Shown piece by piece: positions 7,418 to 48,732 of a stretch of DNA of 64,000 nucleotides. Origin of the DNA: Candidatus Omnitrophota bacterium (GTDB taxonomy: Bacteria > Omnitrophota > Gorgyraeia > B26-G9). A model generated the notes under the pieces. The model was given only the letters and a program-made list of their open reading frames with translations, was not told the DNA's origin and did not search any database. Position numbers and translations under genes: made by a program. The first letter of the stretch is position 1. Each line of letters opens with the position of its first letter. Location: NCBI GenBank assembly GCA_043826565.1, contig JBDRPX010000019.1, forward strand, positions 5,369-69,368, in the 5' to 3' direction.

Positions 7418-7418
7418 A

Positions 7419-8588
7419 ATGAGAACTGATCATAGCTGGCGAAAGATGGATCTGTGGAATAATGTAGCGGAAAAAGATTGGCAAAACTGGCGCTGGCAGA
7501 TCCAAAACAGAATTACCACTAAAGAGCAGCTTAAAAAAGTTATTTGCCTTACCCCGGAAGAGGAATCGGGAGTTGATGTTTTAAGCGGCCGGCTTTCTAT
7601 GGCGATCACGCCTTATTTTTCTCAGTTAATGGATCCGGAAAAAAATTATTGCGCGATAAGAAGGCAGGCGGTTCCTTTAATTGATGAGACTTTTGCCAGT
7701 TCGAATGAAAGTATTGATCCTTTGGCTGAAGACAGATATTCTCCCATACCCGGGCTTGTCCATCGTTATCCGGACAGAGTATTGCTTTTGGTCACGGACC
7801 AGTGCGCGGCATACTGCCGTCATTGTACGCGCCGGCGTTTAGTAGGGACAGAAGAAGCGGTAATAAAAGGGAAAAATTTAATCAGAGCTTATGATTATAT
7901 TCGTTCGCATAAAAATATCCGGGATGTTTTGATCTCCGGAGGGGATCCCTTATTACTTGATGATGAACGCTTAGAAGAAATTCTTATCGCGGTTCGTTCA
8001 ATTCCCCATGTTGAATTTTTGCGGATCGGGACCCGTGTTCCGGTTACTTTGCCGCAGCGCATTACTCCGGAACTTGTTGCGGTATTAAAAAAATATACTC
8101 CGTGGATATCCATACATTTTAATCATCCTAAAGAGATAACCAAAAGCTGTCAAAAAGCCTGCGGCATGCTTGCTGATGCCGGACTTCCTTTAGGCAGTCA
8201 GACGGTATTATTAAAAGGGATAAATGATCGTTTGTATATTGTAAAAAAACTTATGCATGAACTATTGAAAATCAGAGTAAGGCCTTACTATATTTATCAT
8301 TGTGATCTGGTTAAAGGTATTAGTCATTTTCGTACTCCGCTTGCTGTGGGAATTTCAATTATGGAAAAATTGAGAGGATATACTTCCGGGTATGCTGTTC
8401 CCACTTATGTATTGGATTCCCCGGGCGGCGGCGGTAAAATACCCATAGTGCCTAACTGTATAATTCGCCAGGAAAAAGGAATTTTTGTTTTACGCAACTA
8501 TGAGGGGAAAATATTTACTTACGATGATACTGCCAGCTGTAGTGAGCGAATTAATGTAAAGCCGGATATTATTTCAGAAATGGATTAA
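7419..8588 (+). CDS. lysine 2,3-aminomutase family radical-SAM protein (KamA/EpmB-like)
   Basis: 'CAAYCRHCTRRR' CxxxCxxC motif and overall KamA-family layout. RBS 'gggaggg' about 10 nt upstream of the ATG at 7419; the alternative track start is 7389. Confidence 0.8.
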   Translation: MRTDHSWRKMDLWNNVAEKDWQNWRWQIQNRITTKEQLKKVICLTPEEESGVDVLSGRLSMAITPYFSQLMDPEKNYCAIRRQAVPLIDETFASSNESIDPLAEDRYSPIPGLVHRYPDRVLLLVTDQCAAYCRHCTRRRLVGTEEAVIKGKNLIRAYDYIRSHKNIRDVLISGGDPLLLDDERLEEILIAVRSIPHVEFLRIGTRVPVTLPQRITPELVAVLKKYTPWISIHFNHPKEITKSCQKACGMLADAGLPLGSQTVLLKGINDRLYIVKKLMHELLKIRVRPYYIYHCDLVKGISHFRTPLAVGISIMEKLRGYTSGYAVPTYVLDSPGGGGKIPIVPNCIIRQEKGIFVLRNYEGKIFTYDDTASCSERINVKPDIISEMD

Positions 8589-12827: not shown

Positions 12828-12871
12828 AAAAAAGCCCTTACCCTTTTTGGGTAAGGGCTTTTCTTTTTTCT
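12828..12871 (+). terminator. rho-independent terminator
   Basis: gcccttaccc-ttttt-gggtaagggc stem followed by TTTTCTTTTTT. Confidence 0.7.
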
Positions 12872-13141
12872 AGGGACTTTTGCAAAACGTCCATCTGCGG
12901 CGTTTTCTCCTCATTCGCTTGTGCGACGTCCTAGGAGAAGGACGCCTCCGCACTCATTCGTCAAGGCCTTGCATCTGTAATCAGGGACTGTTGTTCCATT
13001 TTCTACTTGACAGTTTAGGGTTTTTTTTGTAGTATAGAATAAAACTGTAAATGTAGTTTTATCAGGTTGTTCAGTTAAATATCCTATGGGTTCCCGTGGG
13101 GGGGATTTAATTTATCCAATACATTATGGGGGTAATCGGAA

Positions 13142-13657
13142 ATGCCGGAAGAACACAGTGTTAAAGAAGAAGTTCAGATGGTAATATTCAGGATCCAGGA
13201 TGAGGAGTTCGGGGTAGAGATAAGCCAGGTAAAAGAAATTCTAAAACTCGTTCCCATAACGCGAATGCCTAAAGCTCCGGTATTTATTGAAGGAGTAATA
13301 AATTTAAGAGGGCAGATAATCACAGTTGTTGATCTGGCAAAAAGATTTGATCTGGATTCTCTGGGGAGAACGGAAACAACCCGGATAATGGTTGTGGAAG
13401 TCGGAGAGAATACCGTAGGGATGATTGTTGATTCGGTTTCGGAAGTTATCAGGCTTTCAGCGAATAATATTGAAAAAACTCCCGCTCTTATTCAAAGCGG
13501 AATTCATGAACGGTATTTAAGAGGGGTGGGGAAAATTGCCGACCGTTTGTTGATATTACTGGATTTAAATGAAGTTCTTAGTACCGAGGAGCTGCATAAT
13601 ATCAATAAGCATATTGAGTCGGCAAGCGAAATAACAGAAAAAGACGAGATAAGTTAA
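13142..13657 (+). CDS. cheW: chemotaxis coupling protein CheW
   Basis: CheW-like domain: 'FRIQDEEFGVEISQVKEI...INLRGQIITVVDL'. Confidence 0.85.
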   Translation: MPEEHSVKEEVQMVIFRIQDEEFGVEISQVKEILKLVPITRMPKAPVFIEGVINLRGQIITVVDLAKRFDLDSLGRTETTRIMVVEVGENTVGMIVDSVSEVIRLSANNIEKTPALIQSGIHERYLRGVGKIADRLLILLDLNEVLSTEELHNINKHIESASEITEKDEIS

Positions 13658-13680
13658 GCGGAAAGGAAGGAGCGTAGATT

Positions 13681-14055
13681 ATGGCAGTAAAAGTGCTGGT
13701 GGTTGACGATGCGGTTTTTATGCGCAAGATGATCGGAGATATTCTCAAAAAAGAGGGGTATGAGATCATCGGTGAGGCAGAAAACGGGCAGGAGGCAGTT
13801 GATAAATATGGAGAGCTTGCTCCTGATCTGGTGACCATGGATATCGTTATGCCTAAGGTAAACGACATGGATGGTATCGGAGCAGTGAAACAGATAATGG
13901 AAAAAGACGGCGAGGCCAAGATTCTTATGGTAAGTGCTATGGGTCAGCACGCGTTAGTTGTCGAAGCTATTCAGGCTGGGGCAAAAGATTTTGTTACTAA
14001 ACCTTTTCAGCCATCTCGTGTACTGGAAGCGGCAAAGAGAGTTTTAGAAAGCTGA
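13681..14055 (+). CDS. cheY: chemotaxis response regulator CheY
   Basis: Single REC domain, 124 aa, with the DD...D...T...K pattern. Confidence 0.85.
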   Translation: MAVKVLVVDDAVFMRKMIGDILKKEGYEIIGEAENGQEAVDKYGELAPDLVTMDIVMPKVNDMDGIGAVKQIMEKDGEAKILMVSAMGQHALVVEAIQAGAKDFVTKPFQPSRVLEAAKRVLES

Positions 14056-14113
14056 GTAATAGATTAAGCAGTGTTTTGTTTTAAATTGATTTTTAAAACA
14101 GAGGCTTTGAAAT

Positions 14114-14734
14114 TTGCTAAAAAAAATAATTGTTTTAACTGCCCAGCAGGAGGATGTATTAAAAGAGCTGGGGAATATATGTGCGGGTAATGCTGCCACC
14201 GCACTTTCTCAATTACTTAATAAAAAAATTATAGTCAATATTCCACATGTGCATCTGGTGCGTATTAAAGAGGTGCCCGCAATTGTGGGCGGTCCCCAAA
14301 AAATAATGGCTGGGGTTGTTTCTCAGGTGTTTGGAGATGCGCAGGGAATTATACTTTTATTATTTCCGCAACAGAGTGCTCATGTTTTATCAGAAATGTT
14401 CCATGGCCGGCAGGATGAGAGAGGGATCTTTACAGAAACTGATCAGTGGGCAATAAGAGAGACGGGCAGTTTATTATCTGCGGTGTATCTCAATACGCTT
14501 ACCAAATTTACAAGATTAAATCTTATCCCATCTACCCCGGGAATCATAATTGATATGGCCGGTGCGCTTATAGATTATCTGCTTATTGAACTTTCAGCTG
14601 TTACAGAATATGCTTTATTAATTGATTCTGAATTTAATGATGCCGGAAGGCTTCTTCAGGGGCATTTTTTATTATTACCTAATGCCGGAAGCCTGGAAGC
14701 CATCTTGGATACAATAAAGGAATATAATGGATAA
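14114..14734 (+). CDS. cheC: CheC-family CheY-P phosphatase
   Basis: 'ELGNICAGNAATALSQLL' CheC signature. The track start is TTG. Confidence 0.75.
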   Translation: MLKKIIVLTAQQEDVLKELGNICAGNAATALSQLLNKKIIVNIPHVHLVRIKEVPAIVGGPQKIMAGVVSQVFGDAQGIILLLFPQQSAHVLSEMFHGRQDERGIFTETDQWAIRETGSLLSAVYLNTLTKFTRLNLIPSTPGIIIDMAGALIDYLLIELSAVTEYALLIDSEFNDAGRLLQGHFLLLPNAGSLEAILDTIKEYNG

Positions 14735-15215
14735 GCCAGAAATTCATATTGGAATCGCGGATATGAAGGTTGCCAAAGCTCCGGCGGTATTAACTTCTTT
14801 AGGTATTGGTTCATGTGTAGGAATTATATTATTTGATAAGCATTCCAAAATCGGCGGGATGGCTCATATCATGCTTCCCGATCAGGATATTGTTAGAAAT
14901 AAAACAAATCGTGCTAAATTCGCGAATACGGCAATCCCGGATATGGTCGAGGATATGGTTAAAAAAGGAGCGGACCGGAAATTTATTAAAGCTAAAATCA
15001 TGGGCGGGGCACATATGTTTAAGTTTTCCCGGGAAACCGCGATCTCCAATATTGGCAAACGGAATGTGGAAGAAGTAAAGAAAGTTTTAGGTGAAATGAA
15101 AATAAAAATTATTGCTGAAGATACCGGCAAGGATTACGGCCGTTCATTATTTTTTGATTTAGATACCGGAGAAGTTAAAATAAGAACTACAACTCATGGA
15201 GTAATGATATTATGA
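14727..15215 (+). CDS. cheD: chemoreceptor glutamine deamidase CheD
   Basis: 'GIADMKVAKAPAVLTSLGIGSCVGIILFD' CheD motif with catalytic Cys. Confidence 0.85.
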   Translation: MDKPEIHIGIADMKVAKAPAVLTSLGIGSCVGIILFDKHSKIGGMAHIMLPDQDIVRNKTNRAKFANTAIPDMVEDMVKKGADRKFIKAKIMGGAHMFKFSRETAISNIGKRNVEEVKKVLGEMKIKIIAEDTGKDYGRSLFFDLDTGEVKIRTTTHGVMIL

Positions 15216-16264
15216 TAAGAGCGCTGGTTGTTGATGATTCCGCATTAATGCGTAAGCGTATAAGTGATATTCTTAATTCCGATAAGGATATTGAAGTTAT
15301 TGATACCGCAAAAACCGGGGCTAGTGCTATGGAAAAAGTAGCGGCTTTGCGTCCGGATGTTGTGACTATGGATCTGGTAATGCCGGATGTGGATGGATTG
15401 ACAGCACTTAATTATATTATGCATGAAGTGCCGACTCCGGTGGTAGTTATCAGTGCCAACGCCTCTCCGAATAGCCGAAATGCTATAAGAGCTTTGAAAT
15501 TAGGCGCGGTTGATGTTATTGCTAAACCGGGAGGGGAGATATCGATTAATATCAGCATAATTGATCATCAAATTATCAATAAGGTAAAGGCGGCGAGTAA
15601 GGTTGATGTAAAGCATATCCAGTCAGTATTGCGCAAAATCGGCGGCAAAGGCCCTAATTTAGCCCGCAAACCGAAAGTAGGGGTTACCCAGGTTATTGCG
15701 ATCGGGGCTTCTACCGGAGGACCTAAAGCGATCAAGGAAATTTTACCGTATTTTGCCCCGGATATCCATGCGGCGTTTTTAATTGTCCAGCATATGCCGG
15801 CGGTTTTTACTAAAGCCATGGCGGAGCGTATTAATTCTGATTCTAAAATTGCCATAAAAGAAGCTGAGGATGGAGATGTTCTCTGTGATGGATGCGGATA
15901 TGTCGCGCCCGGCGGTTATCATATGGTAGTTGTAAAACACGGCGATGATATGTTAATTAGGCTTACAAAAGATCCGCCGGTGAACAGTGTTCGTCCGTCA
16001 ATTACGGTGATGATGAATTCCGCGGCTAAGGAATTTGGTGCAAAATGTACTGGTGTTTTATTAACCGGTATGGGCCAGGATGGTGTTGAGGGTATGAGGA
16101 GTATCCATGATGCCGGAGGAAAAACATTAGCGGAAGATGAATCTACTTGTGTGGTTTTCGGTATGCCGAAAGTAGCAATTAAAGAAGGTGTAGTTGATAA
16201 AGTTGTTCCATTACACCATATGGGCATTGAATTAATGAAGATTATCCGGGATAGGGGACTGTAA
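15212..16264 (+). CDS. cheB: protein-glutamate methylesterase CheB (REC + methylesterase domains)
   Basis: N-terminal receiver domain. C-terminal 'IAIGASTGGPKAI' methylesterase motif. Confidence 0.85.
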   Translation: MIRALVVDDSALMRKRISDILNSDKDIEVIDTAKTGASAMEKVAALRPDVVTMDLVMPDVDGLTALNYIMHEVPTPVVVISANASPNSRNAIRALKLGAVDVIAKPGGEISINISIIDHQIINKVKAASKVDVKHIQSVLRKIGGKGPNLARKPKVGVTQVIAIGASTGGPKAIKEILPYFAPDIHAAFLIVQHMPAVFTKAMAERINSDSKIAIKEAEDGDVLCDGCGYVAPGGYHMVVVKHGDDMLIRLTKDPPVNSVRPSITVMMNSAAKEFGAKCTGVLLTGMGQDGVEGMRSIHDAGGKTLAEDESTCVVFGMPKVAIKEGVVDKVVPLHHMGIELMKIIRDRGL

Positions 16265-16266
16265 AT

Positions 16267-18285
16267 ATGAGTATGGAGCAGTATCGAACTTTATTTGTGG
16301 CTGAATCAGAAGAGCACTTGCAGTTTATCAGCAATGCGATACTGCGTCTGGAAAAAGATCCGGAAGATACGGAGACTTTAAATACGATCTTTCGCAGCGC
16401 GCATACATTAAAGGGTATGGCGGCAACAATGGGGTTTAAGAAGTTTACGGAATTGACCCATAAGATGGAAGATATGCTGGAAACATTCCGGACAGAAAAA
16501 ATCCCGGTTACTTCGGAAATGATCGATCGTTTGTTTAAATGTATGGATATGTTGGAGATGCTTTTAGAAGAGGTAAGATCCCGGAAAGATCTGAATCTGG
16601 ACGTAGATGTGCTTATTGCAGAACTGGAAACAATCTCTCCGGCATCAGTATCCGAAGAAAGCGCTGTAAAAAAAATAAAGAAGGCAAAACCAATAGCTCT
16701 GAGTAAGCTTGAAAAGCACAATTTATCCAATGTGATAAGTGCTCGGGGATTATCTGTCTATCAGATTGATGTTTGTCTGTCGGAAGATTGCCAATTAAAA
16801 TCAGTCCGTGTATATATGATATTTAATAAATTAGAAGAGTTTGGCGAGGTGGTTAAGTCGGTGCCGTCTCCGGAAGATTTAGAGCAGAACAGAGTTGACC
16901 GCATTGTTTCGTTATTGTTTTTAACAAAGACATCGAAAAAGAAAATTGAAGATATTTTAAGTATCATCTTAGAAATAGACAGCATTGAGTTCAAGGAAAT
17001 AACTGATATTGACAGCTTGCCGGAAGGGCAGACTATTGAATCGGCAAGGAATATTAATGAGGGAAAGACAAAAGAAGGAAAAGAACAATCCGGGGAAGCT
17101 GCCCGCCAGAGTACGGAAATACGAAAAATAAAGAATATCAGGATTAGTACTAAACGCCTTGATAAATTAATGAATCTGGTCGGAGAATTAGTTATTGCTA
17201 AAATCAGATTGATGCAGGTCGCTCAGATACAGAAAATTCAGTCTCTGCATGAAGTTTTAACGATTATTGACCGGCTTACCGGGGAATTGCAGGATGAGGT
17301 AATGCAGGCCCGATTAGTGCCGATTTCGCATGTATTTGACCGTTTTCCGCGGATGGTCAGGGACTTGGCTCGTAAAGAGAATAAACAGGTGTTTTTGGAG
17401 CTTTCCGGTGGAGAAATCGAATTAGATCGTACTATCCTCGATGAGATCGCTGATCCTTTAGTCCATCTTTTGCGTAATAGTGTGGATCATGGAATAGAAT
17501 TGCCTAAAGAAAGAAAAAACTATGGGAAAAATCCCAGCGGAACTATAAAATTGCGGGCGGAAAGGGAAAGAACCCATATTTTAATTGAGGTTTCTGATGA
17601 CGGAAAAGGAATAAATCCGGACATGTTGAGGCAGAAGGCATTAGAAAAAGGCTTTTTAACCGAGGAAGAGATAAATAAAAGCAGTGATAAAGATATATTG
17701 AAAGTAATAACTCTTCCCGGATTTAGTTCGGCAAATGTTGTTACCGATACGTCGGGACGCGGTGTCGGGATGGATGTCGTAAAAATGAAGATAGAATCAT
17801 TAGGCGGTTTTCTTTCTTTTGATTCTCAGCTTGGTGCCGGCAGTAAGTTTAGTTTAAGACTGCCGGTTTCGGTAGCGATTATCCGCGCTATGCTTGTCGA
17901 GGTCAGCGGGGAAATCTACGCGGCGCCGATCGCGAATATAGCCGAAACTGTAAAAGTAGCGCAAAGTCAGATAAAGCATATTGAAAAATTTGAAGTTATT
18001 AATTTAAGAGATGAGGTTCTTCCGCTGGTAAGGTTAAGCCAGGCTTTGGAAAGCCGCTTGGAGATAGAGCTTAAACCTAAAAAAAGTAAAGAAATTTCAA
18101 TTTTGGTTGTCGAAGGAAACGGGAAGAAAGCCGGATTGATTGTGGATAGATTTTTGGGACAGCAGGAAGTGGTTATTAAGTCTATAGGCAGTTTATTAAA
18201 AGGGATTAAAGGATTTTCCGGCGCAACGATATTAGGAGACGGACGCGTAGCGCTTATTTTAGATGTGGTAAGTATGGTCGGATGA
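16267..18285 (+). CDS. cheA: chemotaxis histidine kinase CheA
   Basis: Hpt 'HTLKGMAATMGF', dimerisation domain, HATPase_c, and C-terminal CheW-like domain. Confidence 0.9.
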   Translation: MSMEQYRTLFVAESEEHLQFISNAILRLEKDPEDTETLNTIFRSAHTLKGMAATMGFKKFTELTHKMEDMLETFRTEKIPVTSEMIDRLFKCMDMLEMLLEEVRSRKDLNLDVDVLIAELETISPASVSEESAVKKIKKAKPIALSKLEKHNLSNVISARGLSVYQIDVCLSEDCQLKSVRVYMIFNKLEEFGEVVKSVPSPEDLEQNRVDRIVSLLFLTKTSKKKIEDILSIILEIDSIEFKEITDIDSLPEGQTIESARNINEGKTKEGKEQSGEAARQSTEIRKIKNIRISTKRLDKLMNLVGELVIAKIRLMQVAQIQKIQSLHEVLTIIDRLTGELQDEVMQARLVPISHVFDRFPRMVRDLARKENKQVFLELSGGEIELDRTILDEIADPLVHLLRNSVDHGIELPKERKNYGKNPSGTIKLRAERERTHILIEVSDDGKGINPDMLRQKALEKGFLTEEEINKSSDKDILKVITLPGFSSANVVTDTSGRGVGMDVVKMKIESLGGFLSFDSQLGAGSKFSLRLPVSVAIIRAMLVEVSGEIYAAPIANIAETVKVAQSQIKHIEKFEVINLRDEVLPLVRLSQALESRLEIELKPKKSKEISILVVEGNGKKAGLIVDRFLGQQEVVIKSIGSLLKGIKGFSGATILGDGRVALILDVVSMVG

Positions 18286-18319
18286 TATCGCAAGCAATAC
18301 TGTCCTAAGGAGGAAAAAT

Positions 18320-18916
18320 ATGGCAGACTTGAGTGATGCTCAACTCGATGCACTGAAAGAAATGGGGAATATTGGTTCCGGTAACGCGGCTACCGCACTT
18401 TCCCAATTAATATCTTCACAAATAGATATTAGTGTCCCTTCTGTAAACTTTTTGCCTTTAGAAAATGTGGCAGATGTTCTGGGAGGCCCGGAAAAAATTG
18501 TTTATGTTATTTATCTTGAAGTTATGAGCCGAATGAACGGAACAATGGTTACAATTATTACTCCGGAGAGTGCGGAATTTTTGGTCAGTAAACTTATTAC
18601 AAATGAGAAGCTGGATAAGGATTCCGAGTTATATCAATCGGCATTAAAAGAAGTAGGATCGATTCTCTGTGGTTCTTATTTAAGTGCTTTAAGTCAGGTT
18701 GTCGGTGAAACTTTTATTGCTTCAGTTCCGGCAATGGCCTGCGATATGATGGGCGCGCTTCTCGACTTTGTTCTCACTGAGATCGGCCAGGTTGCCGAGG
18801 AAGCTCTCTTGATAGAGACAGAGTTATTTGTTTCGGATACTAAGGTGGAATGCTCGCAATTGTTTCTTCCTAAGCCCGGCTCTCTGGAAACATTGCTCGC
18901 TGCAGTTGGCATGTAA
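18320..18916 (+). CDS. second CheC/CheX-family phosphatase
   Basis: 'LKEMGNIGSGNAATALSQLI' CheC-type motif. 198 aa. Confidence 0.7.
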   Translation: MADLSDAQLDALKEMGNIGSGNAATALSQLISSQIDISVPSVNFLPLENVADVLGGPEKIVYVIYLEVMSRMNGTMVTIITPESAEFLVSKLITNEKLDKDSELYQSALKEVGSILCGSYLSALSQVVGETFIASVPAMACDMMGALLDFVLTEIGQVAEEALLIETELFVSDTKVECSQLFLPKPGSLETLLAAVGM

Positions 18917-18924
18917 TTTGTTAA

Positions 18925-19100
18925 AAAGTTAAAATGCAAAAATCAAAACTCAAAAATACAAGTCAAAAATCAGAATTGATAAAAAATTATTATAAAGAAA
19001 TGATTTTTAAATATTTTATAACACATAATAATAGATTAATTAATGAGTTTTAAATTTTGAATTGCAATTTTGACTTTTGAATTTTAAGTTTTGACATAAG
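18925..19100. repeat. inverted pair of A-rich 'TCAAAA/TTTTGA' heptamer arrays flanking an AT-rich core
   Basis: Left arm 'gcaaaaatcaaaactcaaaaatacaagtcaaaaatcag', right arm 'caattttgacttttgaattttaagttttgac'. Confidence 0.5.
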
Positions 19101-19153
19101 GTTGAATTTATTAAAAATATTGTTTAACATTAGATAGTTTCGGGAGATAGTTA

Positions 19154-21301
19154 ATGTTTGATAAAAAAGATCTCATATTTTCGTTAGATATCGGAACCCG
19201 CAAAGTAGTCGGTATTGTTGCGCAAAAAAATGAAAGCTCTATTCAGGTAATTGATGTGGAAGTCGTAGAGCATTCTTCCCGGACAATGCTTGACGGACAA
19301 ATACATAATATTAATGAAGTTGCCAAGATCGTCGATATTATTAAGGGAAGATTGGAAAAGAGACTGGATATCTCTTTGCACAAGGTCGGAGTTGCTGTTG
19401 CCGGCCGCGCCTTACGTACAGTGCATGCGAAAATTGCCAAAGATCTTTCCTTGGATGAAGAAATAACCGAAGACGCGGTGCGCAATCTTGAATTAGAGGC
19501 AGTAAGCAGTGTCCTTCATGAAGCGAATCATGATTTTGGCCAGGGGGATTATTATTGTGTGGGATATAGTGTGGTGTATTATGAGCTTGATTCGGCGGTT
19601 ATGGGAAATCTGGTCGGGCATTTTGGCCGGAATATGGCGGTTGAAGTTATTGCTACTTTTCTGCCCCGGGTTGTTTTAGACAGTATGTTAAGCGTATTGC
19701 GTAAGACCGGACTGGAAGTGATTAATCTTACCTTAGAGCCGATCGCGGCAATTAATATTATGATTCCGCAGGATATGCGGCGCTTGAACCTGGTGCTTGT
19801 TGATATCGGCGCCGGGACTTCTGATATAGCCTTGACCCGGGGGGGCAGTGTTGTTGCTTATGGTATGGTCCCGGAAGCCGGAGATGAAATCACCGAGCTG
19901 ATTTGTGAGAAATTCATTCTGGATTTTACTTCCGCGGAAAAAATAAAAAGATTAGTTTCCAGCCAGGCCAAAGTGGAATTCCAGGATATTTTGGGGAAAT
20001 CCTATAGGCTTGATTCTCAGGATATTATCGAGGTTATCCATGATCGTGTGCAGGCATTGGCGCGTTCTATATCAGATTGTATCCTGGAACTTAACCAGAA
20101 TGTGCCGCATGCGGTTATTTTAGTCGGAGGGGGCAGCCTTACTCCTCTATTAAATAAAGCTATTGCCTGTGCTTTGCCATTGGATGAGAATAAAGTCGGG
20201 ATTCGTATGCCGGAAATGATCCAAGGAGTGCAGGATAAAACCGGAAAGTTAAAAGGTCCGGATATGGTTACTCCGATAGGGATAAGTGTTATGACCGCCC
20301 AGTCTCGCGGTTTAAAATTTATTGATTTGTATGTAAATGAAAAGCGGATCCACGTTTTGGACATGCAGCAAAATATGGATATTATAAGTGCGCTGGTTGC
20401 TGCCGGGGTAGACAAATATAAATTATATGGAAAAATAGGAAAAGCTATTTGTGTTGAACTTAATGGCCAATTAAAGATAATTAAAGGCAAGACGGGAAGA
20501 CCCGCCCGGTTTAAGCTTAATGATAAACCGGCAGAACTAACCGATAGTGTAAAAAATCAAGACCGGATTACTTTTGAAGGAGCCCAAGACGGTGAAGATG
20601 CGATGGCGAAAGTTAAAGATATTATTGATGTTACAACTATTAGGGTTATGGTCAATGAAGAGCCTGTGGAAATCAAGCCCAGAATATTTATTAATGATGT
20701 TTTAGTAACCGAAGAAGAGGATTTAGTTGACCGGGCTTGTATTGAATTTGATCCGGAATTTGAAGTAAGAGAAGTTTTGGAAAAAGCCGGGATTAATACC
20801 CTGTCTTTAGAGGATAGAGAGATTGTTGTCCGGGTTAATAAAGAGCCGCGGATTTTAACCCAAAGCAACTATAATTTAATGATCGAGGGTAAGCGCGCTA
20901 CTTTAAACTCAAAAGTTATCGATGGAAGTGTTATTGAATTTGATAAAGAGCATGCTCAGTTCTACCGGGTAAAGGATGTCGTGGAAGTCCCGGAGAATGG
21001 CCGGAATATAAGGGTTGTATTTAATGACAAGCAATGTATGTTAGATGGAAATCACGGGAAGATTTTTATGAACGGACAGAAGGTCGATGCCGATGAATTT
21101 CTTATTGACCGGGCGGAGATTATTACCAAGCCTGGAGGAAATATGCTGCCGACTGTATCTCATTTGTTAAAATATTTCCCGGTTGATTCTGATGAATATA
21201 AGGGGAAAATCCTAAAGATTGCTGTCAACGGAGAGCCGGGAGGTTTTACAACACAGCTTTCCGAAGGAGCAGAAGTAACGATTTGTTTTGTCCACAGATA
21301 A
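19154..21301 (+). CDS. FtsA-like actin-fold (ASKHA) ATPase with a ~330-aa C-terminal extension of tandem ~60-aa repeats
   Basis: 'LDIGTRKVVGIVA', 'LVLVDIGAGTSDIALTRGGSVVAYGMVPEAGDEIT' and 'ILVGGGSLTP' align to the FtsA phosphate-1, phosphate-2 and adenosine motifs. The C-terminal half contains repeated 'V.VN.EP' units (IRVMVNEEPV / VVRVNKEPR / IRVVFNDKQ / IAVNGEPGG). Confidence 0.65.
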   Translation: MFDKKDLIFSLDIGTRKVVGIVAQKNESSIQVIDVEVVEHSSRTMLDGQIHNINEVAKIVDIIKGRLEKRLDISLHKVGVAVAGRALRTVHAKIAKDLSLDEEITEDAVRNLELEAVSSVLHEANHDFGQGDYYCVGYSVVYYELDSAVMGNLVGHFGRNMAVEVIATFLPRVVLDSMLSVLRKTGLEVINLTLEPIAAINIMIPQDMRRLNLVLVDIGAGTSDIALTRGGSVVAYGMVPEAGDEITELICEKFILDFTSAEKIKRLVSSQAKVEFQDILGKSYRLDSQDIIEVIHDRVQALARSISDCILELNQNVPHAVILVGGGSLTPLLNKAIACALPLDENKVGIRMPEMIQGVQDKTGKLKGPDMVTPIGISVMTAQSRGLKFIDLYVNEKRIHVLDMQQNMDIISALVAAGVDKYKLYGKIGKAICVELNGQLKIIKGKTGRPARFKLNDKPAELTDSVKNQDRITFEGAQDGEDAMAKVKDIIDVTTIRVMVNEEPVEIKPRIFINDVLVTEEEDLVDRACIEFDPEFEVREVLEKAGINTLSLEDREIVVRVNKEPRILTQSNYNLMIEGKRATLNSKVIDGSVIEFDKEHAQFYRVKDVVEVPENGRNIRVVFNDKQCMLDGNHGKIFMNGQKVDADEFLIDRAEIITKPGGNMLPTVSHLLKYFPVDSDEYKGKILKIAVNGEPGGFTTQLSEGAEVTICFVHR

Positions 21302-21334
21302 TCCGCCAAGTGGCCGCTGAAAGCGGACAATGGC

Positions 21335-21395
21335 GAGACCTCCCGCCTAGCCATCTTTAGAATGAGCTTCTTGGGCGGCGAGGCTGGCGCCGAGG
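21335..21395. repeat. GC-rich hairpin motif 'CCCGCCTAGC...TGAGCT...GGCGAGGCTGGC' (second copy at 28085-28125)
   Basis: Shared 10-12-nt arms in two intergenic regions with a variable loop. Embedded in a ~120-nt GC-rich island (21300-21420). Confidence 0.35.
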
Positions 21396-21546
21396 GCAAC
21401 TTCGGAGAAGTATCCCGGCGGGAAAATAATTAGAGGGGATCTAACCTGATAGATAGTGGTCTGATCCCTTGATTTTTAGTAAAAAGGTTGACGCCTGGAT
21501 TTAAATACGATATTATATCTGCAATCATTACACAGGATATGTTATT

Positions 21547-23559
21547 ATGAAAAAATTAGTTATTGTTGAATCTCCCACAAAGGCCAGAACCATTGGAAGA
21601 ATTTTGGGCAAGGATTATGTTGTTTATTCCTCCATGGGGCATGTTATTGATCTTCCGCGCCGAAAAATCGGGGTAGATATAGAACAGGATTTTAAGCCGA
21701 CCTATTCCATAATTACCGGGAAAAAGAAAATTCTCACCCAACTTAAGAAAGAGGCAAAAAACACAGATGTTGTTTATCTGGCCACAGACCCTGATCGCGA
21801 GGGAGAGGCGATAAGCTGGCATCTTAAGGATCAATTGCGTGATAAAGCTAATAATCGCAGCTTCTTGCGTGTTGTTTTTCATGAGATTACTCCGCAGGCG
21901 ATTGAAGAGGCGTTTAACCATCCTCATGAGGTAGATCAGAGTAAAGTATATGCGCAGCAGGCCCGGAGGATCTTAGACCGGATCGTCGGTTACTTTTTAA
22001 GCCCGCTGCTTTGGAAAAAGGTGGCAAAGGGGTTAAGTGCCGGTAGAGTGCAATCTGTAGCTTTAAAGATAATTGTTCAAAGAGAAAGACAAATAGAGGA
22101 GTTTAATCCGGAGGAATACTGGAAGGTTGAGGCTGAGCTAAAAAGAAGAGAAGGTAATAAAGAGATTTTTACTGCCGAACTGATAAAGTGCGGCCAGGAA
22201 AAAATAAAGGTTCAAAAGCAGGAAGAAGCGGATAAAATCATCGAAGAACTTAAAGTTCAAAGCTATGCTGTTTCCGCAGTCAATAAAAGAGAGAAAAAAA
22301 GAAACCCCTATCCGCCGTTTATTACCAGTACGCTTCAGCAGGACGCGTTTAATAAGCTTAAATTTACTGCCCGCAAGACCATGATGATCGCTCAACAGCT
22401 TTATGAAGGGATAGAACTCGGGGAAGAAGGCCCGATAGGGCTGATTACTTATATGAGAACTGATTCGGTTAAGATTGCTGATTCAGCTTTGGCAAAGGTC
22501 AGAAAGTTTATCCAGGATGAATACGGTAAACAATATTTACCAGCTAAACCTAATGTGTATCGCTCTAAAGGATCGGCGCAGGAAGCTCATGAAGCGATCC
22601 GGCCGACTGCGGTAGAACGTATTCCGGCGCAGGTAATGGGGTATCTAAGCGATGACCAATATAAGCTATATGAATTGATCTGGAAAAGAACAGTGGCCAG
22701 CCAGATGCTGCCGGCGCGTTATTTAGCCATTACTATTGAGATTGCCGCGGGCCGGTTTTTATTTTCTACCAGCGGGGCTGTGCCATTATTCGATGGTTTT
22801 TTAAAGATATATAATCGGGAAGATATTAAAGAGAAAGAAAATTCTTTGCCGGAGTTTAATCAGGGCGAGGGGCTTGATCTTCTGAACCTTTTACCTTCTC
22901 AGCATTTCACGCGTCCTCCGGCCAGGTATTCGGAAGCATCTCTGGTAAAAGCACTGGAAGAAAAAGGGATTGGCCGGCCGAGTACTTATGCGCCGATTAT
23001 CCATACCCTGGTATTGCGCAACTATGTGCGTCGTGAAAAGGGATATTTAATGTGTACAGAACTGGGAATGAAAGTCAGCGATATTTTAACCGAATATTTT
23101 CCGAAAATTATTAATGTGACGTTTACGGCGACAATGGAAACCGAACTTGACAAGGTCGAAGAAGGAGAACTTGACTGGGTAACTGTTTTAAGGGATTTTT
23201 ATACGCCGTTTGAAAAAAAGCTTAGTTTTGCCCAGGATAATATCAAGAAAGAGGTTATCGAGACTGACGAGGTATGTACTTTATGCGGCCGGCCCATGGT
23301 GATCAAGTGGTCCCGCAGAGGTAAGTTTTTAAGTTGTTCCGGGTTTCCGGAATGCCGCCATGCTAAGTCTATTTCCAGCGGAGTGAAGTGTCCGAATGAA
23401 GGCTGTGACGGTGAGTTGATTCAGCGCAGTTCAAAAAGAGGAATGCGTTTTTACGGATGCAGTAAATATCCGGAATGCCGTTATGTGTCAAGATATCTGC
23501 CGAAAGAGGGCAAAGAAGGGCCGCAAGAGGATGAAGAGCAATCAGAAACCAGTGACTAA
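21547..23559 (+). CDS. topA: DNA topoisomerase I
   Basis: TOPRIM N-terminus 'LVIVESPTKARTI'. Active-site Tyr region. C-terminal C4 zinc ribbons (CTLCGRPM..C..C; CPNEGCDG..C..C). Confidence 0.9.
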   Translation: MKKLVIVESPTKARTIGRILGKDYVVYSSMGHVIDLPRRKIGVDIEQDFKPTYSIITGKKKILTQLKKEAKNTDVVYLATDPDREGEAISWHLKDQLRDKANNRSFLRVVFHEITPQAIEEAFNHPHEVDQSKVYAQQARRILDRIVGYFLSPLLWKKVAKGLSAGRVQSVALKIIVQRERQIEEFNPEEYWKVEAELKRREGNKEIFTAELIKCGQEKIKVQKQEEADKIIEELKVQSYAVSAVNKREKKRNPYPPFITSTLQQDAFNKLKFTARKTMMIAQQLYEGIELGEEGPIGLITYMRTDSVKIADSALAKVRKFIQDEYGKQYLPAKPNVYRSKGSAQEAHEAIRPTAVERIPAQVMGYLSDDQYKLYELIWKRTVASQMLPARYLAITIEIAAGRFLFSTSGAVPLFDGFLKIYNREDIKEKENSLPEFNQGEGLDLLNLLPSQHFTRPPARYSEASLVKALEEKGIGRPSTYAPIIHTLVLRNYVRREKGYLMCTELGMKVSDILTEYFPKIINVTFTATMETELDKVEEGELDWVTVLRDFYTPFEKKLSFAQDNIKKEVIETDEVCTLCGRPMVIKWSRRGKFLSCSGFPECRHAKSISSGVKCPNEGCDGELIQRSSKRGMRFYGCSKYPECRYVSRYLPKEGKEGPQEDEEQSETSD

Positions 23560-28441: not shown

Positions 28442-31400
28442 ATGTTTAAATCAAGAAAAATTACAAAGGTAATTGCTGGCATTGTTCTGCAGGTGTTTTT
28501 CTTTTCAAATTTTGCTTTGTGCGGGGATATGAATATGTCTCCTGATAGGGTGCGGAAATCAGATACCCTTGCCCCCCATATCGCGATAGGAATATCTTCG
28601 ATGCAGCAGATGTTTGCAGATACAGTATATCCTAGATGGTCAGCCGGCCGGCAGCAGCTTTCCGTAAATACCGGTGCTAGCGAGAAAGTTTCAACAATAC
28701 ATACCATAGATAATTTAAAACAAAAAGTTAAAGCCGGTAAATCAAAAGGAGTTATTTTGGTAGCCGGAGGCGCCGGATATATCGGAGGGCATACTGACCG
28801 TGCTTTAATGCAATCCGGTTATGATATTGTAATTTTGGATAACCTGGTAAATGGCCGGCGTTTTGTAGTTGAGCGTAATCAGGCTTATGCTCAGGATAAT
28901 GATAAAATTTGTGTTTTTGAACAAGCAGATTTAAAAAATAGTGAAGATGTTCTCAAAAAATATAAAGAAGCGGGAATACCGATTGTCGGAACAATTCATT
29001 TTGCGGCATACATTGAAGTGGGAGTGTCCGTAGAGCGTCCGTGTGTTTATGCTTTAAATAATATTATTAATACTCTCCGGCTGCTTTATGCCGCAAAGAA
29101 ATATGGAGTTAAAAATATTGTATTTTCTTCGTCAGCCGCTGTATATGGGACTCAGAAGAAAATGCCTCTAGAGGAAGGCCGAAGAAAGCACCCCACCAGC
29201 CCTTATGGATTTAATAAATGGGTTATGGAATTAATGATTAAATCATTCCAGAAGCTGGGTATGTCTTGGATTGCCTTGCGTTATTTTAATGCTGCCGGGG
29301 CTGCTTCCGACGGAGCTTTAGGAGAATCTCATCCTCTTCCGGATTCACATGTAATCAGAGCGGTTTTTCGTAGATTTTTAGATGGATTGGCCGCGGCAAT
29401 ATTCGGCCGGGATTATCCCACGGCTGACGGTACTTGTGAACGTGATTATATCCATGTTGAGGATTTGGCAGACGCGCATGTCCGGGCAATTGAAGCTTTA
29501 ATTAACGGAAAAAACCAGGAAGCAATTAACCGAGCATATAATGTCGGAACCGGTGAAGGTCTTTCTGTGTTGGAGATGATTGGTCTGATTACTAAACTAA
29601 TGGGTAAGGTAGTTAAAAAATTCTTTGTCCGGGAAGAAGCCCGTCGAGCTGGTGATCCGCCGGCTTTGGTCGCCGATTCCAGTGATATTCAAAGGAACCT
29701 GGGATGGAAAGCAATGCGTGATCCGCAGGTAATTGTAAAATCAGCGATTAAATGGGATATTTCTCCCCGTCAGCCGGAAGAAATTTATGAACCAAAGCCG
29801 CTTCCGAATATCTCAGAGTATGATGCTTATCAGGAAATCAAAAAAGTTTTAGCAGAAGATAAATTGCTGCCTTTGGGAGTAAAACTTTATATTAAGTGGA
29901 AACTTTTATGGGAGATTAGAACGGCATTAAAGCAGCGTTATGCTAAGGCGGTTAAGTTACTTAAGGCCAAACAGAAAATATATGCGGATAATTCTGACCT
30001 GCAGAAGATGATCAGTGCAAATCTTTTCTTGTTAGAAAAATATAAATGGATTAGCATTGCTGACTTAAGTTTGTTTGGTAAAGGATCAGCTTTTGAAAGA
30101 ATGGATTCTCTGCTTCGTTTTATCGAAAAAGTTCAATGGCCTAAATTAGATAAACTTCCGGAAGATAAAGCTGAGCGTGAGCAATATATTCTTCAAGATC
30201 CGATAGTTGCTGATTGTAAAGCCCAAGAAGCTGTAAAAAATACTTTTTCTTATGATCAGGGGCATGTATTTGATTATTGGCTTCAGTTAAGCAGTGAGGG
30301 AAAAAAGGAATTGTTGGGTTGTCTTACGGTGATTAATTTTGAAGAAGCGTTTAGGCTTTATCAGGAAAACGTAAAAAATAAACAGGATATTAAAGTTGAT
30401 TTCGAATCATTGCATGCGCCGTCAAATATGATGACTGCCGAAGAGGCATTGGCAAGTAATCAGCATTTAATGGCAAATGCTTTACGCATGGGTAAAGTCG
30501 CGGTTTATTTACTTGCCGGAGGCAGCGGAACGCGTTTAGATTATGACCATCCTAAAGGGATGTTTGAGTCCAGCCCATTAAGCGGAGCTTCTTTATATCA
30601 GCAGTTTGCGGATGAGGTTAGGGAGTTGGGTAATCGTTACGAAGCAAAAATACCTTTACTTGTGCAGACTAGTGAAGGCACGGATGAAGAAACAAAAGTA
30701 TTCTTTGCCAATAATAATGATTTTGGGATCCAGGATTCTACCCGGTTTGAACAGCAGCGGAGTTTTCCGGTATTTGATAAAGACGGAAAATTTATTCTGA
30801 CGACAAAGAGTTCTATTCAGATCGGCGGTTTTGGTCATGGAGATGTTACGGATTTTGTTTTACGGAAAAACGACGTGCGCGGCTGGCTGCAGGATAATTT
30901 TGGGACAAAATATGTACTCATGGTTCAGGTGGATAATCCGCTTGCGGTTAAGCAATTAGAGGCAATGTTAGCGGCGCATTTAAAGGATGAACAGCAGCGC
31001 GCATATAATGCTCCGGAAAATGCCGCACATATCAGTTATGGGCTTATTGAAAAACTGGCCCCGGATGACCGGTTGGGAAATCTGGCGGAAACTGAAGAGG
31101 GTTTGTGGCAGATGGTTGAGTATTCGGAAGTCGATCAGCTAAGTGAAGCGGCAAAAAAGAAGATTGTTTCTGATGTGGGCAGTCCGAATATTTTAATGAT
31201 AAGTTTAGACGGTTTAGATAAATTGCCGGCACTTTCAGTGCATGTTGACCGCGGCAAAAAAGTTTTTTCAATGCAGGCCGAGGGAAAGGTTCCCGGAGAT
31301 AAAATGGAAACATTTGTTTTTGATACCCGGGCTTATGGCGCGGCAGTGGTCTTACCTAGATACAGCTCGTTTGCTCCGACTAAGAAAAGAGAGCGTGATG

Positions 31401-39859: not shown

Positions 39860-39943
39860 AGATCTTCCCGCGACTTGCATCAGCCCATCTATTATGGTAT
39901 ACTTTATTACTTTTTGTAACTGAAAGGAAAGTAGTGAAGCCGA

Positions 39944-48534: not shown

Positions 48535-48732
48535 AATTAAAAGTCAAAAATCAAAGGTCAAAAGGCAAAAGTGCAACTCAAAATTCAAAACTAGTTAAAC
48601 AGTAGGAAAGATAACTGAGATTAGTGAAATATTGAGGATGCTTACTGCAGGAAGATTACAATCGAAGAACAAAAAGTTTTTATTTTTAAATTATATTTTT
48701 GAGTTTTGAATTCTAAATTTTGAGTTTTAACA
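48535..48732. repeat. inverted pair of 'TCAAAA' heptamer arrays
   Basis: 'aaagtcaaaaatcaaaggtcaaaaggcaaaagtgcaactcaaaattcaaaac' ... 'tttgagttttgaattctaaattttgagttttaac'. Confidence 0.5.

What the first reader, a model, noticed from the sequence alone, without database searches (positions are those of the whole stretch)
19154..21301. 715-aa FtsA-like actin-fold protein with tandem β-repeat tail, placed after a chemotaxis operon rather than in a division cluster
The N-terminal ~380 aa align well to FtsA phosphate-1, phosphate-2 and adenosine motifs. FtsA normally ends in a short amphipathic membrane helix and sits beside ftsZ. Here the C-terminal ~330 aa consist of four ~60-residue repeats built around V-x-V-N-x-E-P, and the gene follows cheA-cheC with no ftsQ/ftsZ in the window. 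This could be a cytoskeletal/scaffold ATPase adapted to chemosensory-array or pilus/flagellar positioning, or a divergent FtsA whose repeats replace the membrane-targeting helix.
Basis: partly seen in the sequence, partly recalled or inferred. Interest (0 to 1): 0.6.

Follow-up and report, generated by a model that had tools for sequence, protein, structure and literature searches.

The report
Chemotaxis-operon FtsA-like protein, ubiquitin-like tail
This gene encodes an uncharacterised but widespread protein, an FtsA/PilM-type actin-like ATPase head fused to a string of ubiquitin-like domains, that in several deep bacterial lineages is built into chemotaxis operons next to cheA and cheC, so it is probably an undescribed accessory part of chemosensory signalling rather than the cell-division protein FtsA.

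Summary
The 715-aa ORF (19154-21301, +) is real and belongs to a Candidatus Omnitrophota MAG. Residues 1-382 are an FtsA/PilM-class actin fold with invariant ATP-binding motifs. They score well below NCBI's FtsA and PilM cut-offs. Residues 386-715 are five (not four) mutually homologous ThiS/ubiquitin-like repeats plus a leading hairpin. There is no membrane helix and no Gly-Gly end. The tail occurs only fused to this head, in at least 500 clusters at 50% identity.

The family spans Omnitrophota, Elusimicrobiota, Goldbacteria, FCPU426, Thermotogae, Clostridia and cultured Bacillales such as Sporosarcina and Anoxybacillus. It is variously annotated 'FtsA', 'PilM' or 'MreB'.

In 69 of 80 species-level loci the gene directly flanks cheA or cheC, in at least five operon arrangements. 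Of 71 loci with an upstream cheA or cheC, 52 show overlap or a gap of 30 nt or less. The Firmicute clade is not che-linked. No ftsZ lies within 10 kb of any member. In Acetoanaerobium, which lacks canonical ftsA, the gene sits 417 kb from ftsZ.

Best reading: a non-divisome, ATP-dependent scaffold or adaptor of the CheA-CheC module. The function is inferred from synteny only. I found no literature on it. It is a new variant of a known kind.

The parts
19154..21301 (+). Complete gene for the 715-aa FtsA-like/poly-ubiquitin-like protein ('X'); the stop codon is 21299-21301.
   Evidence: It is 100% identical to P0001, named 'cell division FtsA domain-containing protein [Candidatus Omnitrophota bacterium]'.
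19154..20299 (+). Head, residues 1-382: an FtsA/PilM-class actin fold (1A/1C/2A/2B) with phosphate-1 (D12-T15), phosphate-2 (D217-D224) and adenosine (G325-G327) motifs.
   Evidence: Pfam FtsA 38.7 bits. TIGR01174 scores 109.6 bits against a cut-off of 175.85. Foldseek gives FtsA TMt 0.82-0.86 and PilM 0.66-0.78. Motif alignment is and invariant columns.
20309..20377 (+). Leading beta-hairpin of the tail (residues 386-408, FIDLYVNEKRIHVLDM).
   Evidence: AF2 strands 387-394 and 397-403. N395 is invariant. In P0112 the ThiS model (HMM positions 18-75) matches residues 431-507. By my estimated numbering offset that is about window 400-475, i.e. repeat 1, which would make this hairpin beta1-beta2 of the first beta-grasp. 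The mapping is approximate.
20378..20587 (+). Tail repeat 1 (residues 409-478).
   Evidence: hhalign to repeat 3 gives probability 97.6%. It is the most conserved tail unit.
20603..20758 (+). Tail repeat 2 (residues 484-535), containing VMVNEEP.
   Evidence: hhalign to repeat 4 gives probability 98.7%. NCBIfam thiS gives a weak match at 498-521.
20759..20953 (+). Tail repeat 3 (residues 536-600), containing VRVNKEP.
20960..21139 (+). Tail repeat 4 (residues 603-662).
21143..21298 (+). Tail repeat 5 (residues 664-715). The protein ends ...VTICFVHR, with no Gly-Gly and no amphipathic helix.
   Evidence: Pfam ThiS matches 666-710 against model positions 22-69. The AF2 model ends in a strand at 707-714.
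13142..18916 (+). Upstream chemotaxis operon: cheW 13142-13657, cheY 13681-14055, cheC 14114-14734, cheD 14727-15215, cheB 15212-16264, cheA 16267-18285, cheC/X 18320-18916.
   Evidence: Pfam. A strong terminator at 12830-12862 and a promoter-like site at 13007-13035 precede it.
18917..19153 (+). AT-rich 237-nt spacer between cheC and X, with promoter-like hexamers at 18906-18935 and 19091-19118 and an RBS (GGGAG) at 19142-19146. It is an outlier: 52 of 71 related loci have overlap or a gap of 30 nt or less here.
21434..21479 (+). Hairpin followed by GATTTTTAG, a likely end of the X transcript.
   Evidence: Fold, sequence. The simple terminator scan did not list it.
21488..21516 (+). Promoter-like TTGACG-17-TATTAT in front of topA (21547-23559). 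It is conserved in sister genomes, so topA is a separate transcription unit.

Best explanation
The gene encodes a member of a large, full-length-conserved, uncharacterised protein family.

Shown. The protein has an FtsA/PilM-class actin-fold head with an intact nucleotide-binding site. This head is joined directly to a tail of five ThiS/ubiquitin-like (beta-grasp-type) repeats. The tail has no membrane-targeting helix and no conjugatable Gly-Gly end. The tail is found only on this head.

Shown. In Omnitrophota and several other deep lineages the gene is a fixed member of chemotaxis operons. It always lies next to cheA and/or a cheC-family phosphatase gene and is often translationally coupled to it.

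Inferred. It is not the divisome FtsA but a paralogous cytoplasmic ATPase. By analogy with FtsA and PilM, it binds ATP, self-associates and captures partner proteins. The multi-domain ubiquitin-like tail would serve as a multivalent docking arm. In this organism it would act as an accessory scaffold or adaptor of the CheA-CheC signalling module, for example organising, positioning or turning over that complex.

The Firmicute branch of the family has lost, or never had, this operon link and presumably scaffolds other partners.
For: Architecture. The AF2 models have pLDDT 85.7 (full length) and 89.4 (tail). Foldseek places the head on FtsA (E about 1e-28, TMt 0.82-0.86) and the tail on bacterial multi-ubiquitin proteins, tetra-ubiquitin, USP7 UBLs, ISG15, ThiS and SAMP1. 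ThiS matches 33 of 43 family members (best E 3.3e-11), and Ub-Mut7C and TGS also match. The ATP motifs are invariant.

Tail-head coupling. About 500 clusters at 50% identity match the tail. Nearly all are 700-730 aa with the tail at about 385-715. The short hits are fragments.

Operon membership. 69 of 80 GTDB-species loci have cheA or cheC flanking X, in five arrangements including X flanked by che genes on both sides. All non-Firmicute clades of the family tree are che-linked. Remote members P0141 and P0191 are also che-linked. A minimal triad cheA-cheC-X occurs with no other che gene within 10 kb. Of 71 loci, 25 show stop/start overlaps and 27 show gaps of 0-30 nt. The operons encode membrane MCPs, so they are genuine chemotaxis operons.

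Not FtsA. The protein scores below the cut-offs. No ftsZ is found in 1.5 Mb of loci.
Against: The function rests on gene neighbourhood only. No interaction, polymerisation or ATPase data exist.

In this window the gene is separated from cheC by a 237-nt AT-rich spacer with promoter-like sites, so here it may be transcribed on its own.

The Firmicute/Thermotogae clade (Sporosarcina, Savagea, Anoxybacillus, Syntrophomonadaceae, Acetoanaerobium) keeps the same architecture with no che neighbours. The core biochemical role is therefore more general than chemotaxis.

The 80 loci analysed are those most similar to the query, so the 69/80 figure over-represents Omnitrophota and their neighbours.

Confidence: 0.5

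Rival explanations
1. X is a general-purpose actin-like cytoskeletal or housekeeping protein. Its position beside the che genes is inherited synteny (a che - X - dprA - topA - xerC - hslVU supercluster) with no functional coupling to chemotaxis.
For: Firmicute members are solitary genes in unrelated contexts: mbl-flgG-like-tagA-X, aroA-X-ytxJ/ytxH, mutS2-X-STAS, X-GGDEF. The dprA/topA/xerC/hslVU block downstream recurs in several lineages. In the window there is a 237-nt spacer with promoter-like sites.
Against: The link to cheA/cheC survives at least five different operon rearrangements, including ones where topA is absent and che genes flank X on both sides. In 52 of 71 loci the coding regions overlap or lie within 30 nt, which is typical of co-translated partners.
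Confidence: 0.18
2. X is the output or effector of the chemosensory pathway: a CheY-P/CheC-regulated actin-like polymer that controls non-flagellar motility or cell polarity, for example type IV pilus function or competence.
For: The head is as much PilM-like as FtsA-like. In clade B a pilin-like (N_methyl) gene precedes the operon in 13 loci, and a ComFB (c-di-NMP receptor) gene directly follows X in 26 loci. ComFB proteins control pilus-dependent competence and motility, and ComFB-CheR fusions occur in Omnitrophota (PMC12448109). dprA directly follows X in clade E. No flagellar gene was seen in the window, and a FlgG-like query hit only its own locus, L067, among the family loci. Only FlgG was searched across the loci.
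Against: TIGR01175 scores 61.8 bits against a cut-off of 133. dprA-topA is a common synteny in its own right. I did not establish whether these genomes lack flagella.
Confidence: 0.15
3. X is simply this organism's FtsA, with the ubiquitin-like repeats replacing the membrane-targeting helix.
For: FtsA is the best sequence and structural match. In Acetoanaerobium noterae X is the only FtsA-like gene detectable in a 2.63 Mb replicon. Presence of a second ftsA in this MAG was not testable.
Against: TIGR01174 scores 109.6 against 175.85, and NF007009 scores 70 against 409. There is no amphipathic C-terminal helix. X is never adjacent to ftsQ/ftsZ. In A. noterae it is 417 kb from a dcw cluster that has ftsQ-DUF881-DUF881-DUF1290-ftsZ without ftsA. 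That absence matches C. difficile, of the same order, which is reported to lack FtsA (PMC13584725). The family is present in Bacillales, where a canonical ftsA-ftsZ operon is the rule (general knowledge). dcw genes including ftsA are reported as conserved in Ca. Omnitrophota (PMC12283558), though that call could be confounded by X itself.
Confidence: 0.07
4. X is a non-polymerising Hsp70/EutJ-like regulatory ATPase or chaperone. Its beta-grasp tail binds a small ligand or RNA (as TGS and ThiS-like domains can) rather than proteins.
For: There are weak matches to EutJ, DDR and TGS/S4 models. Beta-grasp domains are functionally versatile (general knowledge).
Against: The head has the FtsA/PilM-specific 1C insertion and aligns end to end with FtsA. 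The EutJ, DDR and TGS matches are all below their cut-offs.
Confidence: 0.08

Closest known systems
FtsA (divisome actin homologue; TIGR01174; PDB 7Q6G, 7Q6D, 7Q6I, 1E4G, 3WQT)
   Same: The four-subdomain actin fold including the 1C insertion is shared. Phosphate-1, phosphate-2 and adenosine motifs are conserved. FtsA is the best sequence and structure match (TMt 0.82-0.86, 16-25% identity).
   Different: X scores far below the equivalog cut-off. It has no C-terminal amphipathic membrane helix and instead carries a 330-aa ubiquitin-like tail. It is never encoded beside ftsQ/ftsZ and sits in che operons.
PilM (type IV pilus alignment-complex ATP-binding protein; TIGR01175; PDB 2YCH, 5EOU)
   Same: X has the same FtsA-like fold. 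Like PilM it is a cytoplasmic protein with no membrane anchor of its own. Databases sometimes name X 'PilM'.
   Different: Structural and sequence scores are lower than for FtsA, and below the cut-off. No pilN/O/P/Q or PilB/T neighbours are present. PilM has no C-terminal domain array.
ThiS/MoaD/ubiquitin beta-grasp proteins and tandem ubiquitin-like arrays (bacterial multi-ubiquitin-domain proteins PDB 9CD2 and 8U38; linear tetra-ubiquitin 7EB9; USP7 UBL array)
   Same: These are the best fold matches of the tail. ThiS, Ub-Mut7C, TGS and Ub-RnfH profiles match family members. The tail is a tandem array of small ubiquitin-like units.
   Different: X has no Gly-Gly terminus and no E1/E2/ThiF/MoeB or deubiquitinase neighbours. 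PADLOC gives no defence-system match. The units are shorter (52-70 aa) and some lack the canonical internal helix in the predicted secondary structure. The array is covalently attached to an actin-fold ATPase.
Dedicated chemosensory-array organisers (ParC/ParP of Vibrio, PpfA of Rhodobacter; named from my own knowledge, not tested here)
   Same: These are nucleotide-dependent cytoskeletal-type ATPases encoded inside che clusters that organise CheA/CheW arrays. This is the kind of role proposed for X.
   Different: They are ParA/MinD-type P-loop ATPases, unrelated in fold to X. No localisation data exist for X.

Membership tests
FtsA (cell-division protein, TIGR01174/NF007009 equivalog) | Actin fold with 1A/1C/2A/2B subdomains and ATP-binding motifs. 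| tested here: met
   Foldseek TMt 0.82-0.86 over about 390 columns. Motif alignment. Invariant D12/G14/T15, D217/G219/G221/T222 and G325-327.
FtsA (cell-division protein, TIGR01174/NF007009 equivalog) | Whole-protein score at or above the curated equivalog cut-off. | tested here: not met
   TIGR01174 scores 109.6 bits against 175.85. NF007009 scores 70 against 409.
FtsA (cell-division protein, TIGR01174/NF007009 equivalog) | C-terminal amphipathic membrane-targeting helix after a short linker. | tested here: not met
   Residues 386-715 are a beta-rich repeat array ending in a strand (707-714). No terminal helix is predicted.
FtsA (cell-division protein, TIGR01174/NF007009 equivalog) | Encoded in the dcw cluster next to ftsQ/ftsZ. 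| tested here: not met
   No FtsZ or FtsQ in the window. No FtsZ within 10 kb in 86 family loci. X lies 417 kb from ftsZ in A. noterae.
FtsA (cell-division protein, TIGR01174/NF007009 equivalog) | Binds the FtsZ C-terminal peptide and localises to the Z ring. | not testable with these tools
   This needs biochemistry, microscopy or complex prediction.
FtsA (cell-division protein, TIGR01174/NF007009 equivalog) | Is the sole FtsA-family gene of the genome. | not tested
In A. noterae X is the only FtsA-like hit. In Bacillales a canonical ftsA is expected from general knowledge.
PilM (type IV pilus, TIGR01175) | Score at or above the curated cut-off. | tested here: not met
   61.8 bits against 133.
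PilM (type IV pilus, TIGR01175) | Encoded with pilN-pilO-pilP-pilQ or pilus ATPases. | tested here: not met
   Neighbours are che genes and topA. No PilT/PilB-family hit in the window or 86 loci. Only pilD lies in the window, 16 kb away.
PilM (type IV pilus, TIGR01175) | Binds the N-terminal peptide of PilN in the 1A/1C groove. | not testable with these tools
   No partner was identified.
ThiS/MoaD/ubiquitin-like beta-grasp superfamily (tail repeats) | Beta-grasp fold or profile match. | tested here: inconclusive
   The window protein scores 21.4 bits on ThiS against a cut-off of 22.5. However, 33 of 43 relatives match ThiS (best 3.3e-11; 50.3 bits in P0222). Foldseek top hits are poly-ubiquitin-like proteins (E 5e-6), with ThiS TMt 0.61. 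Strand order could not be inspected.
ThiS/MoaD/ubiquitin-like beta-grasp superfamily (tail repeats) | C-terminal Gly-Gly used for adenylation or conjugation. | tested here: not met
   The protein ends ...CFVHR, and the family consensus ends IxFExRx. No conserved GG occurs at repeat ends.
ThiS/MoaD/ubiquitin-like beta-grasp superfamily (tail repeats) | Partner E1-like (ThiF/MoeB) or E2/DUB genes nearby. | tested here: not met
   None among the annotated neighbours. No meaningful PADLOC match.
Chemotaxis (che) operon component | Conserved co-location and co-orientation with cheA, cheC and other che genes across lineages. | tested here: met
   69 of 80 loci, five arrangements, and 52 of 71 loci with a gap of 30 nt or less or an overlap.
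Chemotaxis (che) operon component | Homology to a described Che protein family (CheA/B/C/D/R/V/W/X/Y/Z). | tested here: not met
   Pfam and NCBIfam give only actin-fold and ThiS-type matches.
Chemotaxis (che) operon component | Physical or functional interaction with the chemosensory pathway. | not testable with these tools

The most novel reading that the evidence does not exclude
X is a previously unrecognised core partner of CheA and CheC in several uncultivated phyla. It would be an actin-like polymer whose assembly is controlled by the chemosensory pathway (CheY-P/CheC), or which itself positions the CheA-CheC complex, with the ubiquitin-like array acting as the coupling arm. That would make it a new class of chemotaxis component, and possibly the pathway's output to a non-flagellar motility or polarity machine.
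Probability: 0.15. Interest if true: 0.85.

Novelty: new variant of a known kind. Interest (0 to 1): 0.6.

Why it matters
Chemotaxis pathways are among the best-catalogued bacterial signalling systems. An additional, conserved and often translationally coupled operon member with an actin fold would be a new type of accessory component. It would offer a handle on how CheA/CheC complexes are organised in Omnitrophota, Elusimicrobiota, Goldbacteria and FCPU426.

Independently of chemotaxis, the family is a fourth widespread branch of the FtsA/PilM/MreB-type bacterial actins. It has a unique covalently attached poly-ubiquitin-like arm. It occurs in thousands of genomes, including cultivable Sporosarcina and Anoxybacillus.

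It is currently mis-annotated as 'cell division protein FtsA', 'PilM' or 'rod shape-determining protein'. This can corrupt inferences about divisome content, for example presence/absence profiles of ftsA in PVC bacteria and Clostridia.

Tried and rejected
- Canonical ftsA in the same genome: this could not be searched in the Omnitrophota MAG or in the 1.87 Mb and 708 kb sister contigs. No second FtsA-like hit occurred in any flank.
- Literature: searches for FtsA-like/actin-like plus che operon, beta-grasp plus FtsA, Omnitrophota plus chemotaxis, and ubiquitin-like plus FtsA/PilM found nothing on this family. Two of these were wasted on word-start matching. The supplements of PMC12283558 contain no Omnitrophota ftsA table.
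- Conjugatable ubiquitin-like or anti-phage Bub-type system: rejected. There is no Gly-Gly, no E1/E2/DUB genes and no meaningful PADLOC hit.
- Fusion partners: longer family members (741-796 aa) carry no extra Pfam domain that hints at function.
- Stand-alone tails: the short hits are gene fragments.
- Cytoplasmic receptor array idea: operon-encoded MCPs in sister loci have transmembrane segments.
- GC-rich element downstream of X: no Rfam match, not repeated in the window, and not conserved in sister loci.
- P0272 (Savagea) could not be looked up. P0001 returned only a 3.6 kb Logan contig.
Full report
**Observation.** The ORF at 19154-21301 (+) exists as described. It starts with ATG, preceded by GGGAG 7 nt upstream. 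It is identical to a protein of a Candidatus Omnitrophota MAG that NCBI names 'cell division FtsA domain-containing protein'. The window is a diderm, ~40% GC genome with kdtA, a TonB-dependent receptor and OMP genes.

Upstream lies one co-directional chemotaxis operon: cheW, cheY, cheC, cheD, cheB, cheA, cheC/X (13142-18916). Downstream lie topA, xerC and kdtA. No ftsQ, ftsA or ftsZ or other dcw gene is in the 64 kb.

**Head.** Residues 1-382 match Pfam FtsA (38.7 bits), PilM_2 and MreB weakly. They match TIGR01174 ftsA at 109.6 bits, below its 175.85 cut-off, and TIGR01175 pilM at 61.8 bits against 133.

A profile of 43 family members hits FtsA structures best (7Q6G, E 3e-23). It aligns phosphate-1 (LDIGTRKV/LEIGTAKV), phosphate-2 (VDIGAGTSD/VDIGGGTMD) and adenosine (VGGGS/TGGGA). 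These residues are invariant in the family.

The AF2 model (pLDDT 85.7) superposes on FtsA with TMt 0.82-0.86 over ~390 columns. It superposes on PilM with TMt 0.66-0.78. The head is therefore an FtsA/PilM-class actin fold including the 1C insertion. By the curated thresholds it is not an FtsA or PilM equivalog.

**Tail.** Residues 386-715 are beta-rich (tail model pLDDT 89.4). Cutting the family alignment at the predicted helices gives five units: 409-478, 484-535, 536-600, 603-662 and 664-715. They are mutually homologous by hhalign (probabilities 78-99%). Units 1 and 3 pair at 97.6% and units 2 and 4 at 98.7%, giving an A-B-A-B-C pattern. A leading hairpin (386-408) carries the same hydrophobic-x-hydrophobic-N motif.

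Foldseek of the tail model against PDB gives poly-ubiquitin-like proteins first:
- bacterial multi-ubiquitin-domain protein 9CD2, E 4.8e-6
- tetra-ubiquitin 7EB9
- 8U38
- USP7 UBL domains and ISG15
- single beta-grasp proteins: ThiS 3CWI (TMt 0.61), SAMP1 and TGS

At sequence level ThiS matches 33 of 43 relatives (best 3.3e-11). Ub-Mut7C matches 15 and TGS matches 11. ThiS reaches 50.3 bits in P0222. The window protein itself sits just under the cut-off (21.4 against 22.5 bits).

The protein ends ...CFVHR with no Gly-Gly, and no terminal amphipathic helix is predicted. I could not inspect coordinates, so the number of independently folded domains (3-5) and the strand order remain unverified.

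**Family.** A full HMMER scan of 1.84 billion representatives with the tail alone found 500 clusters at E<=1e-3. Nearly all are 700-730 aa with the tail at ~385-715. The short hits are fragments. The tail therefore occurs only on this head. More than 8000 clusters at 90% identity match the full protein.

A scan of GTDB species genomes gave 398 relatives. They are full length at 34-69% identity in Omnitrophota, Elusimicrobiota, Goldbacteria, FCPU426, Thermotogae, Thermoanaerobacteraceae, Syntrophomonadaceae and other Bacillota. Cultured carriers include Sporosarcina, Savagea, Solibacillus, Rummeliibacillus, Anoxybacillus amylolyticus and Acetoanaerobium noterae. Source names vary between 'cell division protein FtsA', 'PilM', 'rod shape-determining protein', 'ATPase' and 'ubiquitin-like domain-containing protein'. 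The tail evolves faster than the head (22-39% against 41-55% identity to distant members), but every unit is retained.

**Context.** Using the window's Che proteins as tblastn queries on 80 species-level loci, 69 have cheA and/or cheC directly flanking the gene. There are at least five arrangements:
- A: cheW-Y-(C)-D-B-A-C-X-topA (the window's clade)
- B: cheY-C-A-C-X-comFB-cheR-cheY-D-B-C/X-W
- C: cheW-Y-B-A-X-C-C-D-Y
- D: cheY-C-D-W-Y-B-A-C-X
- E: cheA-cheC-X-dprA-...-topA-...-xerC-hslVU, with no other che gene in 10 kb

Two much more distant members are also che-linked. In a neighbour-joining tree all non-Firmicute clades are che-linked. One Firmicute/Thermotogae clade is not.

Of 71 loci with an upstream cheA or cheC, 25 have overlapping stop and start codons and 27 have gaps of 0-30 nt. 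The window, with 237 nt of AT-rich spacer carrying promoter-like sites, is an outlier. Sister operons encode membrane-bound MCPs. topA has its own promoter, conserved in the clade.

In Firmicutes the gene is solitary:
- murA-spoIID-spoIIID-mbl-flgG-like-tagA-X in a Syntrophomonadaceae MAG
- ccpA-aroA-X-ytxJ-ytxH in Savagea and Anoxybacillus
- other unrelated contexts

**Is it FtsA?** It fails the equivalog cut-offs and lacks the membrane helix. It is never within 10 kb of ftsZ in 1.5 Mb of family loci.

A 2.63 Mb Acetoanaerobium noterae replicon, filed among plasmids, allowed a whole-replicon test. ftsZ lies 417 kb away, in the cluster murG-ftsQ-DUF881-DUF881-DUF1290-ftsZ-nrdR, with no ftsA. 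This matches the report that C. difficile, of the same order, lacks FtsA (PMC13584725).

So even where no canonical ftsA exists, X is not placed with the division genes. Bacillales carriers are expected to have ftsA-ftsZ (general knowledge; not tested). dcw genes including ftsA are reported conserved in Ca. Omnitrophota (PMC12283558), although X itself could confound such orthologue calls. I could not examine the rest of this MAG, so a small probability remains for the FtsA reading.

**Is it PilM?** No pilN/O/P/Q genes and no PilB/PilT-family ATPase are near any member. Some hints keep a pilus or competence-related output role possible. Clade B operons are preceded by a pilin-like gene in 13 loci, and X is followed by a ComFB gene in 26 loci. 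ComFB proteins are c-di-NMP receptors that affect motility and competence, and ComFB-CheR fusions are noted in Omnitrophota (PMC12448109).

**Mechanism.**
Shown:
- the architecture
- the intact nucleotide site
- the exclusive head-tail coupling
- the operon membership next to cheA/cheC
- the absence of membrane-anchor and conjugation motifs

Inferred: like FtsA and PilM, the head binds ATP, self-associates and docks partner peptides. The ubiquitin-like array is a multivalent arm. In che-linked lineages the partners are CheA and/or the CheC-family phosphatase, so the protein scaffolds, positions or regulates that module. Confidence is about 0.5.

Rivals:
- synteny without function (0.18)
- pathway output to a non-flagellar machine (0.15)
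- non-polymerising regulatory ATPase (0.08)
- true FtsA (0.07)

**Novelty.** I found no paper describing this family or an actin-like member of che operons. It belongs to a known superfamily, but the tail fusion and the che-operon membership are undescribed. I rate it a new variant of a known kind, with interest 0.6.

Noticed in passing
window 21300-21470 (+): A GC-rich ~170-nt intergenic stretch between X and topA, in a 40% GC genome. It folds into a multi-stem structure (MFE -69.2 kcal/mol, z = -2.9). It has no Rfam match, is not repeated in the window and is not conserved in sister genomes. Its last hairpin plus T-run (21434-21479) may terminate the X transcript.
   Followed up: partly
window 18917-19153: A 237-nt, very AT-rich spacer between cheC and X with A-rich near-repeats and promoter-like hexamers. 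Sister genomes have 0-30 nt or overlapping codons at this junction, so this looks like a lineage-specific insertion that may uncouple X from the che transcript.
   Followed up: partly
L001 12526-13625; 26 clade-B loci (e.g. L027, L029, L037, L040, L043): A small ComFB-domain gene (c-di-NMP receptor family) sits immediately after X and before cheR in clade-B operons. A type IV pilin-like (N_methyl) gene precedes the operon in 13 loci. A published note of ComFB-CheR fusions in Omnitrophota fits this arrangement.
   Followed up: partly
L091 (Acetoanaerobium noterae NZ_CP154629.1 1969241-1988116): This 2.63 Mb record, filed as a plasmid, is evidently the chromosome. Its dcw cluster reads murG-ftsQ-DUF881-DUF881-DUF1290-ftsZ-nrdR with no ftsA. 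The only FtsA-like gene in the replicon is the X homologue, 417 kb away.
   Followed up: yes
L090 (Anoxybacillus amylolyticus pDSM15939_1) and L085: In Bacillales the X homologue (annotated pilM) sits between aroA and ytxJ-ytxH-DUF948, on a 258 kb 'plasmid' that carries housekeeping genes (ccpA, murC, ftsK), so it is chromid-like. YtxH appears in a PDB integrative model with the actin-like Mbl (9A51, seen). This is a curious adjacency to another actin-like gene.
   Followed up: no
L079 and L080 (contigs CAZSAP010000012.1 and CAZSAP010000003.1): Two cheA-cheC-X copies lie on two contigs of one MAG, with near-identical proteins in the tree. This is either a duplication or an assembly or binning redundancy.
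   Followed up: no
window 28442-33169 (+): A 1575-aa single ORF fuses an NAD-dependent epimerase/dehydratase, a UTP-glucose-1-phosphate uridylyltransferase-like domain and a HAD hydrolase. This is an unusually large multi-enzyme sugar-nucleotide protein.
   Followed up: no
window 42264-46103 (+) and 39805-42030 (+): A 1279-aa ORF has only weak phosphoglucomutase and phosphoglucose-isomerase domain matches. It is preceded by a 741-aa ORF with no Pfam match at all.
   Followed up: no
window 6371-8588 (+): A D-Ala-D-Ala-ligase-like ATP-grasp gene overlaps a lysine-2,3-aminomutase-like radical SAM gene. This is not a dcw ddl. It may be a beta-lysine-type modification pair.
   Followed up: no
window 48720-53222 (+): hemB, a radical SAM/SPASM enzyme, a NirD/L-like (siroheme decarboxylase-type) regulator-like protein and hemL lie together. 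This suggests the alternative (siroheme-dependent) haem pathway.
   Followed up: no
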